Assembly (NCBI GenBank): GCA_973851085.1
Contig: OZ316775.1
Span: forward strand, 20,956,001 to 21,020,000
DNA: 64,000 bases
Source: Ptychomitrium polyphyllum
Taxonomy: Eukaryota
Direction: 5' to 3'
Part shown: positions 27,660 through 31,211 of the stretch, piece by piece
Numbering within the stretch: the first letter of the stretch is position 1
Layout of the letters: the number at the start of each line of letters is the position of its first letter
Position numbers and translations under genes: made by a program
The notes under the pieces: generated by a model
The model's input: only the letters and a program-made list of their open reading frames with translations
Database searches by the model: none
Told to the model about the DNA's origin: nothing

Positions 27660-29453
27660 TCAGAAACCAAGACAGTGTAGCATAATGGCGTTTTGCGCGT
27701 GCATCCGGTTCTCTGCTTGTGGGAAGACAATGGAATTGCGGCCCTCAATAACACCATCTGTGACTTCCACTCCTCGTTCAGCTGGCAGACAGTGCATGAA
27801 ATATGCTTGAGGTCCAGCAGCTTTCATTAGAGCCTCGTTCACCTGCAACGACAGGATATTTGTTGTTACGTAAGGGCCACATGAAAAGATGACAGAAGAT
27901 AGAAAACTAAACGTATAGAGCCTGAAATGGACAAATATGTCTCCTGAGGAGACAGGTGAAATGAGAGTTTACACGATCCCTGCAATGGTTGTGTTCTCGG
28001 GCACAGGCTTTCAGCAAGTGACCAATTGCTGGATGGCTCTAGGAACTGAAATTCATACCTGAAAACCCTGAAAAACCTTCTTGCGGTTGTCTGAGTCCTC
28101 TTTCTGGCCCATGCTAGCCCATACATCTGCGTAAATGACATTGGCACCCTTCACAGCTTCTGTAGGGTCGTTGCTGATTTCAATCTTACTCACTCCTGCT
28201 CTACGAGCTCTTTCGACTGTGGCAGGATCGGGCTCGTAACCCCGGGGACATGCACATACAAAATGGAAAGGAAGTACAGATGCCAGGCGCAACCACGAAT
28301 GCACCATATTATTGCCGTCTCCCACGTACACTACCTATGTTGCTCAGGTACGCACGAAATAGAGTCAACAACACACCTTAACCAGTTGGACAGCTACAAA
28401 ACTAGGCATGAATTATGTAATTCCTATTTAAGGATGCAGCGTATTTAGCATTTCATGATCCAGAAGATGCATGCTCTACAGGACATAATTCGTCAACCAA
28501 CTATGAAAACCATCCACATTTTTTGCTGCTTGTTAATATCCTATCACATAGCCTGACATACCTTGAGACCATCAATACTGCCAATGAACTCGTTGATGGT
28601 GAGAACATCTGCCATGATCTGGCATGGGTGGTTGTAGTCTGTGAGCCCATTAATGATAGGAACTGTCGAATATTTTGCCAAATCTAGTAGATCCTGCATT
28701 TACCATACGAGCAGAAGTCAAACAATTAGCAAAGCTCACGGTGTGCGACAGGTGCACCCTTCACAGTTCGTGATACTGATTTCCAGCAACATAGGGAAAC
28801 TAGGCTGTGATTATGATGAATTAAACCACCAGTTCGAAGTATCTGACTCGGTATCAATTACACTAAATCTGAATGCCTGGTTAAAGAAAGACAGATTCAG
28901 ATAATGGGCAAATACATTTAAAGCAATGCCAAAGCCAGCTCTGAAAATGATAAAGCCTCGCTGATTAAAGGTAAAGAGATTAGCTAGCAGTTAGTACTCA
29001 CGCACAATCTCCAGCAAGTAGACTCTTTCTCATCTTGAGTTAAGTGCACTCGAGATAGTAGAAAGGATTCAAGGCTGCTAAAGCAGAACTGAGTCGATTT
29101 GCTAAAGTGTACCTGGTGTTCAAAAAGACGTGCCATGATGATATCATTATAGCCAGAGAGCACACGAGCAATATCACGGGTTTCCTCGCGCTTCCCCAAC
29201 TGAATGTCATTAGGACCCAAGTAGATAGCGTGGCCTCCCAACTGATAAAAACCAGTCTCAAATGACACTCTTGTACGCATGGATGGCTTCGTGAAAATCA
29301 TGGCCATGGACATCCCCTTAAACGGTTGATAGCTCTTGTCACCTGACTTCAGCCTGGCCTTCACTTCCGCGGCCCGATCCAAGATGTGTAGCAATGTTTC
29401 CTTGTCAAAATCGTCAAGGTGCAGAAGGTGTCTAGGGCCTTTTTTCTTTTCAA
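27660..29453 (-). other. OTC: Ornithine carbamoyltransferase catalytic region, exons 6-9
   Basis: Complete carbamoyl-phosphate and ornithine-binding motifs (SMRT, HPCQ, SMG, HCLP); stop at 27660. Confidence 0.97.
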
Positions 29454-31211
29454 CTGAAAACAACTTTGCCTCAACAATTCAGTCAAGTGAATGAAGATAT
29501 GGGTTTTCAAAATGACAATGACAAGAGATGGAGCTTGTGAAATCTCATATCAAACAAGACTATTTGCAACTGACAGTAAAAGGATGCAGTAACACTTACC
29601 ACCTTTGTTACCTCCTTCCAAAGCATTGAAAATATCGGACCTTGTTACGATACCTGAAAAGCTCAAGATGCACGACTCACAAACACTTAGGAAAGCGTTG
29701 AACCTGTACAGGAGTCGTAACCAGTCTTGAATTTTGTAGCATCCGCAGTAGCTGATGTAACACTACGAAATTCAACAAGGTCTACATTCCAAATTTCTAA
29801 CAATTCTAGTCACAGCACCTATAACCTGATCGAGATCCCACTGATTAAATTGGTCAATAGCACAAGAATAATTGATTCCAGGAAACACAAAAAACTGTAG
29901 AGATTTGGAACTTGCCTACAACTTGATTTTTTTCATTTACGATAGGGATACGATGAACCTTGTTCTTCAGCATCAAGACCGCAGCATCTGCAATACCAAA
30001 ATCCACACAAAAATTCACGAACTTGCAAGAATCTTCATGGGGAGCCACGTGACAGAAAACACGTCAAGAGGTAAACCTCAAAAACTCCATATTCTAAACT
30101 CGAAAAGGAGGGACCCATCAACACCACGGGGGACCCTGTTTAAAATACTCGACATAAGACTTTGAGATTCCATACTCTATAGCTCAAAGGGAGGCAGTTG
30201 TCAACCCTAAATTCATTAGGATCCTCTAATCTTCACGCTAGTCGTAAGCATTAGACATCCGATCCTGACCTCATGTATGTGTATACGTAAAACAATCTAT
30301 TCCACTACTCATAAGTGACATGAAACTGCAATTGCCTAGGCATCGGGAAGCATACCAGAGACAACCTTGTCTGCAGATAAGGTGATTGCTGGCGTGGTCA
30401 TAACTTCCTTCACCCTAGTATTCAGCTGAATATCAAACGCTTGCGTCATTGTTAGGATGCACAGAAGAGAATGGGCTAGTAGCCACTCCACAAGACTTAC
30501 ATGTCAAATAAGGCCAGGATTGAACTTGATGGGAAAGATTAATCACTTACACTGGATGATTTAGCTCGATCTTTTCTGGAAAGGACTCCAACGCATTTGT
30601 GGTCGTGGTCGACTACAGGAAGGCCAGATATATCAGAAAAGTAATGGTTTATATCCTCAAGAGACTGCTCTGGAGATGCAGTGATGATGGTTCTCGACAT
30701 TATATCTGCCAGATACGTAGTCGGCTGGGCCTGTTGCAACAACAAAATTATCAGGTCCACATGTGTATGTTCCACTGAGAGAAGAAACAGGTATGATTTG
30801 TAGTGATATACACAAAAGCTTCCGTGAGGTTGCAAGTTTCTGTAAAGTAAACAGCAAACATCTACACTATGTGAATATACAGACACAAGTCGGGAATCAA
30901 CATACCTCTGGTTTAAACAAATCAGACTCATAGTGCTTCGACAAATCCTCATAATTCAGCAAGGAAAAGTTCTCGGCCCACTCTCCAGATGGGAAGACGT
31001 CACCCTTCGCAGCGCCCTCCTTGATGTCAACATCGATTCCCTCTGCTGCGCATACCACAAGCCTCCTGGCATTCCTGCTGCTTTGATGCCTTAGATGCAG
31101 AACTGAGCTAGTAATCCACTGCCTGGACGATTTTAAGTTCGGTTGGGTCTGTAGATGGGAAGTCAACGACGCAGTTGCTGAGGCGCCACTCAACCGCAGG
31201 ACTACGTCCAT
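27660..31211 (-). CDS. OTC: Plastid-targeted CBS-domain / ornithine carbamoyltransferase fusion, 537 aa; exons 31211-30906, 30730-30551, 30425-30356, 29987-29916, 29653-29600, 29453-29113, 28693-28562, 28334-28059, 27842-27660
   Basis: All introns are GT-AG except intron 4 (GC-AG); phases are consistent; total 1614 nt. N-terminus is a Ser/Thr/Arg-rich transit peptide ending VVCA. CBS motifs [14 protein letters not shown] and HRIPIV/GIVTRSD. OTC motifs [45 protein letters not shown]. Confidence 0.85.
29600..30730 (-). other. CBS-pair (Bateman module) coding exons 2-5 of the fusion gene
   Basis: [48 protein letters not shown]...[55 protein letters not shown]. Confidence 0.93.

What the first reader, a model, noticed from the sequence alone, without database searches (positions are those of the whole stretch)
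27660..31211. In-frame fusion of a CBS (Bateman) regulatory module to plastid ornithine carbamoyltransferase
Seen: the CBS exons have no stop codon. Exon 5 ends ...[12 protein letters not shown] at a perfect GTAAGT donor (29599). A 146-nt intron ends at TTTTCAG (29454) in the same phase and continues [16 protein letters not shown] into a complete OTC. The OTC part has no ATG or transit peptide of its own: its first Met lies ~45 aa inside the catalytic domain, and there is little room for a separate promoter. The only transit peptide is on the CBS exon 1. Established: characterised plant OTCs are transit peptide plus catalytic domain only. CBS pairs bind AMP/ADP/ATP/SAM and regulate fused enzymes (IMPDH, cystathionine beta-synthase, AMPK gamma), and plastid CBSX proteins modulate thioredoxins. 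Inference: an energy- or redox-sensing OTC that gates carbamoyl phosphate between arginine and pyrimidine synthesis. Pairing dimerising Bateman modules with a trimeric OTC could also build higher-order assemblies. I know of no description of this architecture but cannot confirm novelty without a search.
Basis: partly seen in the sequence, partly recalled or inferred. Interest (0 to 1): 0.92.

Follow-up and report, generated by a model that had tools for sequence, protein, structure and literature searches.

The report
Moss arginine enzyme carries CBS sensor
In this moss, as in Physcomitrium and Ceratodon, the gene for the chloroplast arginine-pathway enzyme ornithine transcarbamylase is fused to an intact CBS module, which likely binds adenine nucleotides and may tie arginine synthesis to the plastid's energy state, something that can be tested directly in a model moss.

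Summary
The fusion is real. Nine minus-strand exons (31211-27660) give an open 537-aa frame: transit peptide, CBS pair, complete OTC. It is not an assembly quirk. Physcomitrium patens (two paralogues) and Ceratodon purpureus have the same architecture, 84-90% identical, with the same linker length. Uninterrupted 496- and 533-aa ORFs on 1.8- and 2.6-kb contigs imply spliced fused mRNA in relatives. Sphagnum, liverwort, fern and seed-plant hits are plain OTCs. The CBS part comes from an uncharacterised streptophyte plastid family, not CBSX1/2. It forms one clade (95/97) and is as conserved as the free paralogue that these mosses keep. Regulation is unshown: the CBS module has one fusion-specific residue, the modelled linker is low-confidence, and three moss OTCs keep only a CBS stub. 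Fused protein about 0.93; CBS control of OTC about 0.45. Databases hold the proteins but name them plain OTC.

The parts
30906..31211 (-). Exon 1: start codon, predicted plastid transit peptide (about residues 1-54) and the family-specific N-terminal extension of the CBS protein (to residue 102)
   Evidence: residues 1-54: 7 K/R, 1 D/E, 14 S/T; 57-74% identity to orthologues in 1-54, 91-97% in 74-105
30551..30730 (-). Exon 2: first CBS domain (SGLP and GVLSRKD motifs)
   Evidence: Pfam CBS E 5.8e-13; motifs
30356..30425 (-). Exon 3: start of second CBS domain
29916..29987 (-). Exon 4: second CBS domain (HRIP motif); ends at a GC donor
   Evidence: Pfam CBS E 3.1e-05
29654..29915 (-). Intron 4, GC-AG type, 262 nt
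   Evidence: the frame is open only with this donor
29600..29653 (-). Exon 5: end of second CBS domain (GIVTRSD motif) and first half of the linker
   Evidence: homologous 31-nt match in the spliced contig L001
29454..29599 (-). Intron 5, the fusion intron, phase 1, 146 nt; holds the in-frame stop (29552-29550) that would end an unspliced CBS-only product
   Evidence: the homologous junction is intron-free in L001
29113..29453 (-). Exon 6: rest of linker and OTC carbamoyl-phosphate domain (SMRTR)
   Evidence: Pfam OTCace_N E 1.5e-32
28562..28693 (-). Exon 7: OTC (HPCQ)
   Evidence: Pfam OTCace_N E 3.3e-11
28059..28334 (-). Exon 8: OTC ornithine domain (DVWASMG)
   Evidence: Pfam OTCace E 1e-26
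27660..27842 (-). Exon 9: OTC C-terminus (HCLP) and stop codon
   Evidence: Pfam OTCace E 1.5e-22

Best explanation
The locus is one nine-exon gene, shared with Physcomitrium and Ceratodon, whose open 537-codon spliced frame encodes a predicted plastid transit peptide, an intact CBS pair and a complete ornithine transcarbamylase, and the CBS pair likely binds an adenyl ligand (AMP, ADP, ATP or SAM) and likely tunes OTC output by changing how the enzyme's trimers associate. Shown here: the frame, the domains, all four OTC substrate motifs, both CBS ligand motifs, orthologues in two other genera, one origin, strong conservation. Inferred with high confidence (about 0.93): the fused mRNA and protein are made, and are probably the main or only OTC of these mosses. 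Inferred for origin: a duplicate of a streptophyte plastid CBS gene gained a donor just before its stop and spliced into the acceptor of OTC's ancestral phase-1 first intron, so replacing OTC's own transit-peptide exon. Inferred with moderate confidence (about 0.45): OTC trimerises as in other plants, the three tethered CBS pairs dimerise as Bateman modules nearly always do, and ligand binding to them shifts assembly or activity, so that carbamoyl-phosphate use for arginine follows plastid adenylate status.
For: Open frame and normal splice signals. Same architecture in P. patens P0001/P0004 and C. purpureus P0132, 84-90% identical to the window model over the whole length. Fused ORFs of 496 aa on an 1831-nt contig (P0002), 533 aa on 2596 nt (P0126) and 390 aa on 2103 nt (P0129); the window needs about 3.4 kb of genomic DNA for the P0002 stretch, so these contigs are most simply spliced transcripts. 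L001 is intron-free across the homologues of introns 4-8, including the fusion junction. The five fused CBS modules form one clade, 95/97. Fused CBS identity between P. patens and Ceratodon is 131/147 and 129/147, against 134/147 for the free paralogue. Family-invariant G150, D156, G210, T213, R214, D216 are kept. The CBS pair folds at pLDDT 91-98 in residues 111-220 of the Ceratodon orthologue. Spacing from CBS end to OTC start is 23 residues in 5 of 5. Every P. patens and Ceratodon OTC entry among the 120 best hits and the 8 clusters opened comes from a fused locus. Genomic fragments of unfused moss OTCs read through an acceptor-like AG just upstream of the catalytic domain (P0145, P0157, P0160). 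Pine OTC is a cooperative homotrimer proposed as a control point (PMC7601404, passages); a CBS fusion protein of cyanobacteria binds AMP and forms a new hexamer (PMC6142219, abstract and section 7).
Against: No ligand, kinetic or assembly data. Only 1 position of the CBS module is fixed in the 5 fused proteins and rare in 26 free ones, so no co-adapted surface is visible. Of 18 OTC positions typical of the fused proteins, 13 are also present in all three CBS-less remnant OTCs. The linker sequence varies (38-54% identity) and has pLDDT under 50 in both models (pTM 0.49 and 0.39). Three moss OTCs (L001, P0003, P0139) keep only the last CBS strand and helix, at least two of them behind a different transit peptide, so OTC can do without the module. 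Conservation could simply mean that the fused module does the same job as the free one.
Confidence: 0.45

Rival explanations
1. Passenger fusion (transit-peptide capture): the fused protein is real, but the two parts work independently. OTC borrowed the CBS gene's promoter and transit peptide; the CBS pair is kept because it still does the job of the free family member or must stay folded.
For: One fusion-specific CBS residue; variable, low-confidence linker; remnant OTCs that lost the module; fusion point at the inferred ancestral first intron of OTC.
Against: Free paralogues exist in the same genomes (P0315 in P. patens; P0322 and P0203 in Ceratodon), so a redundant passenger would be expected to decay, yet it is as conserved as the free copy and kept in both P. 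patens paralogues. Linker length is fixed in 5 of 5.
Confidence: 0.33
2. Redox adaptor: the CBS pair recruits thioredoxin or NTRC, as proposed for CBSX1/2, and brings light/dark thiol control to OTC.
For: Plastid CBSX2 co-purifies with Trx and NTRC components (PMC10643993 abstract). The module has a nearly invariant Cys148.
Against: The module is not close to CBSX1/2 (36-39 bits over the second CBS domain, below archaeal CBS proteins at up to 82 bits). In one study CBSX did not change Trx target reduction in vitro or in vivo (PMC7921703 abstract).
Confidence: 0.1
3. Polyprotein or two-product locus: the fused transcript exists, but the precursor is cut at the linker after import, or intron-5 retention makes a free 243-aa CBS protein as a main product.
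For: Read-through of the exon-5 donor gives a short in-frame tail and stop; the linker is lysine-rich and predicted flexible. Ceratodon annotation lists a 263-aa OTC-only isoform and an intron-retaining 622-aa isoform at the same locus (P0124, P0134).
Against: The donor is a full GTAAGT consensus and intron 5 has no AATAAA. The 263-aa isoform starts after OTC's first helices. No conserved cleavage motif is seen in the linker.
Confidence: 0.09
4. Artefact: two adjacent genes joined only by gene prediction or by mis-assembly.
For: No direct transcript from this organism was examined.
Against: Same fusion in two other genera, intron-free fused ORFs on short contigs, no start codon or transit peptide for OTC.
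Confidence: 0.03

Closest known systems
Plant plastid ornithine transcarbamylase (Arabidopsis OTC, PDB 8QEU/8QEV; pine OTC)
   Same: Residues 229-537 of the Ceratodon orthologue match 8QEU at E 1.2e-159, 73-75% identity; SMRTR, HPCQ, SMG and HCLP motifs (PMC10765591 section 5) are all present in the window model.
   Different: A CBS pair with an N-terminal extension lies between transit peptide and catalytic domain. 117 of the 120 best hits lack CBS.
Free-standing streptophyte plastid CBS-pair family (about 220-250 aa; uncharacterised; P. patens XP_024358303, Marchantia, Sphagnum, ferns, gymnosperms, monocots, Chara)
   Same: 66-76% identity in the CBS pair and 81-91% in the N-terminal extension; direct parent family.
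   Different: Here it runs on into OTC instead of stopping a few residues after the last helix; the fused copies form their own clade.
Arabidopsis CBSX1/CBSX2 (PDB 4GQV, 4GQW, 4GQY, 3SL7)
   Same: Plastid-targeted CBS pair.
   Different: Distant: 36-39 bits, matched over the second CBS domain only; stand-alone proteins.
CBS-regulated enzymes and fusions: IMP dehydrogenase, CBS-pyrophosphatase, cystathionine beta-synthase, cyanobacterial CBS-CP12
   Same: A Bateman module on one chain with another functional unit; in CBS-CP12 the fusion binds AMP and creates a hexamer (PMC6142219). Regulation of IMPDH, pyrophosphatase and cystathionine synthase by their CBS modules is recalled, not checked here.
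   Different: No OTC or other carbamoyltransferase with CBS was found outside mosses or among the 27 other OTC proteins scanned; ligand control is unshown here.

Membership tests
Ornithine carbamoyltransferase (anabolic, plant type) | OTCace_N + OTCace domains above curated cut-offs; TIGR00658 | tested here: met
   window exons; Ceratodon orthologue TIGR00658 381.6 bits against cut-off 280.85
Ornithine carbamoyltransferase (anabolic, plant type) | SMRTR, HPCQ, SMG, HCLP substrate motifs | tested here: met
   positions 285, 363, 455-461, 494 of the window model; motif list from PMC10765591 section 5
Ornithine carbamoyltransferase (anabolic, plant type) | Transit peptide joined directly to the catalytic domain | tested here: not met
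   about 175 residues of CBS protein intervene
Ornithine carbamoyltransferase (anabolic, plant type) | Homotrimer with citrulline-forming activity | not testable with these tools
   needs enzyme assay and SEC-MALS
CBS pair (Bateman module) | Two tandem CBS domains with the CBS fold | tested here: met
   Pfam PF00571, 2 stretches, 102.7 bits in P0132; pLDDT 91-98; Foldseek match to 2P9M, 2.2 A over 124 columns
CBS pair (Bateman module) | G-h-h-S/T-x-x-D ligand motifs in both domains (motif definition recalled) | tested here: met
   GVLSRKD at 150 and GIVTRSD at 210; G150, D156, G210, T213, D216 invariant in 58 sequences
CBS pair (Bateman module) | Binds an adenosyl ligand and homodimerises | not tested
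CBSX1/CBSX2 thioredoxin modulators | Close sequence kinship to Arabidopsis CBSX1/2 | tested here: not met
   36-39 bits, ranked below archaeal and bacterial CBS proteins (query the free homologue P0198); no tree with CBSX was built
CBSX1/CBSX2 thioredoxin modulators | Stand-alone protein that interacts with Trx/NTRC | not testable with these tools
   fused here; interaction needs pull-down
CBS-regulated enzymes (IMPDH-like allostery) | Ligand binding at the CBS module changes catalysis or assembly | not testable with these tools
   indirect only: one fusion-specific CBS residue, low-confidence linker

The most novel reading that the evidence does not exclude
Funariid and dicranid mosses make all their arginine through an adenylate-gated OTC, the first carbamoyltransferase with a built-in nucleotide sensor. 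CBS dimers bridge OTC trimers into ligand-switched cages or filaments. The fusion also points to OTC as the natural partner of a widespread, uncharacterised plastid CBS family, which would regulate plain OTC in trans in other plants.
Probability: 0.2. Interest if true: 0.85.

Novelty: new variant of a known kind. Interest (0 to 1): 0.63.

Why it matters
OTC is where plastid carbamoyl phosphate enters arginine synthesis, and pine OTC has been proposed as a control point (PMC7601404). Arginine levels shape gametophore growth in P. patens (Kawade 2020, seen only as cited in PMC8137854). If the model moss's OTCs all carry a nucleotide-sensing module, this step is wired differently from other plants, and gene targeting in P. 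patens can test it at once. The locus also records a full life cycle of a domain fusion: origin at an old intron, retention under selection beside free paralogues, and loss in some moss copies. It gives a first handle on an uncharacterised plastid CBS family found from Chara to monocots.

Tried and rejected
No whole genome is held for the window, so gene copy number could not be searched directly. No RNA holder was listed for this stretch; this says nothing on expression. Contigs of run X1 span 26500-33000 in one piece with no difference, but X1 may be the window's source; X2 pieces cover only 30194-33000. Laying X1 and X2 on the moss OTC transcript L001 at 80% likeness gave long pieces only from the contig that holds this locus, the other listed X1 pieces being 34-41 nt; this fits a single OTC gene, but records are filtered and a hole proves nothing. 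The metagenome scan kept 80 of 584 loci, mostly prokaryote-like OTCs at 58-67% identity, and gave no fused genomic locus; only L001 was informative. A 90-sequence mixed alignment (A2) misplaced the CBS rows and was dropped. The first AlphaFold model had mean pLDDT 64 and pTM 0.49 and cannot place the two modules. Complex prediction of CBS on OTC was not available, so docking and dimerisation are untested; the wide structural search was busy and not run. The 50%-representative search did not list the moss fusions as representatives, so it cannot exclude a CBS-OTC fusion hidden in another cluster. The AU test could not decide whether remnant OTCs nest inside or beside the intact fusions (p 0.136). 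The ESM Atlas gave only 'hypothetical protein', CBS, 428 members, mostly Streptophyta. Rejected: two-gene artefact, an OTC start inside intron 5, and membership of CBSX1/2. Earlier scan findings: three unrelated windows by sequence, none by words.
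Full report
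Observation. The region holds nine minus-strand exons from 31211 to 27660. Joined, they give 1614 nt and 537 aa with no internal stop, predicted mass 59.6 kDa. All eight introns end in AG; seven start with GT and intron 4 starts with GC. Pfam places CBS in exons 2 and 4 and the two OTC domains in exons 6-9 (9 frames scanned, 6 with hits). It looks like the other introns in composition, has no AATAAA and offers no start for OTC; the first Met after the junction is M275. One loophole remains in the DNA alone: unspliced read-through of the exon-5 donor stops 16 codons later and would give a 243-aa CBS-only protein.

The fusion is conserved. A search with exon 6 among longer proteins found 7795 hits; of the best 120 listed, 3 carry CBS as well as OTC: two Physcomitrium patens paralogues (P0001, 535 aa; P0004, 533 aa) and a JGI protein (P0002, 496 aa). 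Opening 8 clusters added Ceratodon purpureus from two assemblies (P0132, 537 aa; P0134) and two Logan proteins (P0126, P0129). The window model is 89.8% identical to P0132 over all 537 residues and 84-85% to the P. patens proteins, so the window is a moss near Ceratodon. The reverse search with the CBS part among proteins of 295-940 aa gave 24 hits, and the only 3 with OTC were the same moss proteins. The Sphagnum, liverwort, lycophyte, fern and seed-plant OTCs listed lack CBS. The databases name the fused proteins simply OTC.

It is most likely expressed as one mRNA. P0002 is a continuous 496-codon frame on an 1831-nt contig, P0126 533 codons on 2596 nt and P0129 390 codons on 2103 nt. The window spends about 3.4 kb on the P0002 stretch, so these are most simply spliced transcripts; I did not see their DNA. 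I did see L001, a 1524-nt contig that aligns to the spliced window frame at 82% over 1009 nt and is intron-free across the homologues of introns 4 to 8, the fusion junction included. No transcript of the window's own organism was available. Every P. patens and Ceratodon OTC entry comes from a fused locus, so the fusion is probably their main or only OTC; this rests on the best 120 of 7795 hits.

Origin. The CBS part belongs to a free-standing family of 220-250-aa proteins found from Chara and Mesotaenium through liverworts, Sphagnum, ferns, gymnosperms, magnoliids, early eudicots and monocots (389 hits, best 120 listed). P. patens and Ceratodon keep free copies at other loci. In a 40-row tree the five fused modules form one clade (95/97), apart from the free moss copies (two rows were trimmed badly, and sparse columns were dropped). 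In OTC trees the fused and remnant enzymes form one clade (100/99) whose sister is a plain moss OTC, P0147, with Sphagnum outside. Genomic fragments of unfused moss OTCs read through an acceptor-like AG a few residues before the catalytic domain (P0145 against P0147; P0157 and P0160 against P0158), and Sphagnum isoforms diverge at the same point. I infer that OTC had a phase-1 first intron there and that the CBS gene's last exon was spliced into it, replacing OTC's transit-peptide exon. This is read from protein fragments, not from DNA.

Selection and loss. Window against orthologues: transit peptide 57-74%, N-terminal extension 91-97%, CBS pair 78-88%, linker 38-54%, OTC 91-94%. Between P. 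patens and Ceratodon the fused module is 131/147 and 129/147 identical, the free paralogue 134/147. Both CBS ligand motifs and all four OTC substrate motifs named in PMC10765591 (section 5) are intact. The distance from the last CBS motif to the start of OTC is 23 residues in 5 of 5. Against a tight coupling: three moss OTCs from unnamed records (L001, P0003, P0139) keep only the last CBS strand and helix. Their upstream 45 residues score 15-19 bits on a profile built from 55 free CBS proteins, against at most 6.8 bits for 97 plain OTCs (104 of 124 candidates had the anchor motif and enough upstream sequence and were tested). L001 and P0139 have a different transit peptide; P0003 is cut at its start. 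So the module has been lost at least once. Whether those copies replace or accompany the fusion is unknown. Only one CBS position (I118) is fixed in fused and rare in 26 free proteins, and 13 of 18 OTC positions typical of the fusions are shared by all three remnants.

Structure. AlphaFold2 on the Ceratodon orthologue gives a confident CBS pair (pLDDT 91-98, residues 111-220), an OTC fold nearest Arabidopsis OTC 8QEU, and a low-confidence linker; neither model fixes the modules' relative position (pTM 0.49, 0.39). The CBS pair matches generic two-CBS proteins such as 2P9M (2.2 A). By sequence it is distant from CBSX1/2.

Mechanism. Shown: gene structure, domains, motifs, conservation, single origin. 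Strongly inferred: one plastid protein of about 480 residues after import that makes citrulline. I commit, at about 0.45, to the reading that the CBS pair binds an adenyl ligand and modulates OTC through dimerisation of the tethered modules, which can bridge trimers. The grounds are that a redundant passenger should decay beside free paralogues and has not, that nearly all structurally known CBS pairs dimerise and often bind adenine nucleotides (PMC6142219, opening text), and that a CBS fusion there produced an AMP-binding hexamer. The main rival (0.33) is a passenger fusion that only supplied promoter and transit peptide. Redox docking (0.10), processing or two products (0.09) and artefact (0.03) follow.

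Known or new. Eight searches of the held library aimed at the fusion or at moss OTC returned no paper that describes it by listing; two more gave background. Three plant OTC papers were checked for 'CBS', 'moss' and 'Physcomitr' with no occurrence in the main text: PMC10765591 (passages and section 5), PMC9669488 (passages; 9 supplementary files searched for moss names, none), PMC7601404 (passages). PMC7921703 and PMC10643993 were seen as abstracts, PMC6142219 as abstract, opening and section 7, PMC8137854 as passages. The library lacks most subscription journals, and bioRxiv supplements were closed, so a mention elsewhere is possible. Among 27 other OTC proteins picked mainly by length (25 of the 150 listed, 2), none had CBS.

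Verdict. A real, lineage-specific, apparently undescribed domain architecture of a core enzyme, present in the main model moss and easy to test. Both parts and the principle of CBS fusion are known, and regulation is unshown. New variant of a known kind; interest 0.63.

Noticed in passing
P0378, P0381, P0384, P0415, P0426, P0429, P0450, P0459, P0469, P0483, P0488: 11 of 27 other OTC proteins scanned carry N-terminal Clp_N repeats fused to a full OTC, two with MshEN or T2SSE pieces between. They are separate 50%-identity clusters, so the fusion is widespread. Clp N-domains bind phospho-arginine in ClpC (recalled), which would suit an arginine-pathway enzyme. May deserve its own look.
   Followed up: partly
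L001:1-1268; P0139; P0003: Moss OTCs with only a stub of the second CBS domain before the old fusion junction, and a different transit peptide in L001 and P0139: a fusion partly undone. L001 and P0139 also differ from the usual sequence around the SMRTR motif.
   Followed up: partly
window 29915-29654 (-): Intron 4 has a GC donor (AG|GCAAGT).
   Followed up: yes
window 31225 (-): An acceptor-like TTTTGCAG lies 13 nt upstream of the start codon, suggesting a 5'-UTR intron and an unseen first exon.
   Followed up: no
window 2-2886 (-): Ty3/gypsy-type retrotransposon gag and pol (protease, reverse transcriptase) frames running off the window's start.
   Followed up: no
window 16861-17496 (-), 49326-50381 (+), 60073-60504 (+), 62922-63308 (+): Neighbouring genes by Pfam: LOB-domain factor, 8-oxoguanine glycosylase N-domain, SUEL lectin piece (below cut-off), DnaJ/Pam16-like piece (below cut-off).
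   Followed up: no
L065:7644-7901: A weak CBS match (26%, E 1.4e-04) lies about 700 nt downstream of a prokaryote-like OTC; 1 of 80 loci, probably chance.
   Followed up: no
Ceratodon 3G263500/3G263600 (P0322, P0203): Two free members of the parent CBS family have adjacent gene numbers in Ceratodon, so they are probably a tandem pair.
   Followed up: no
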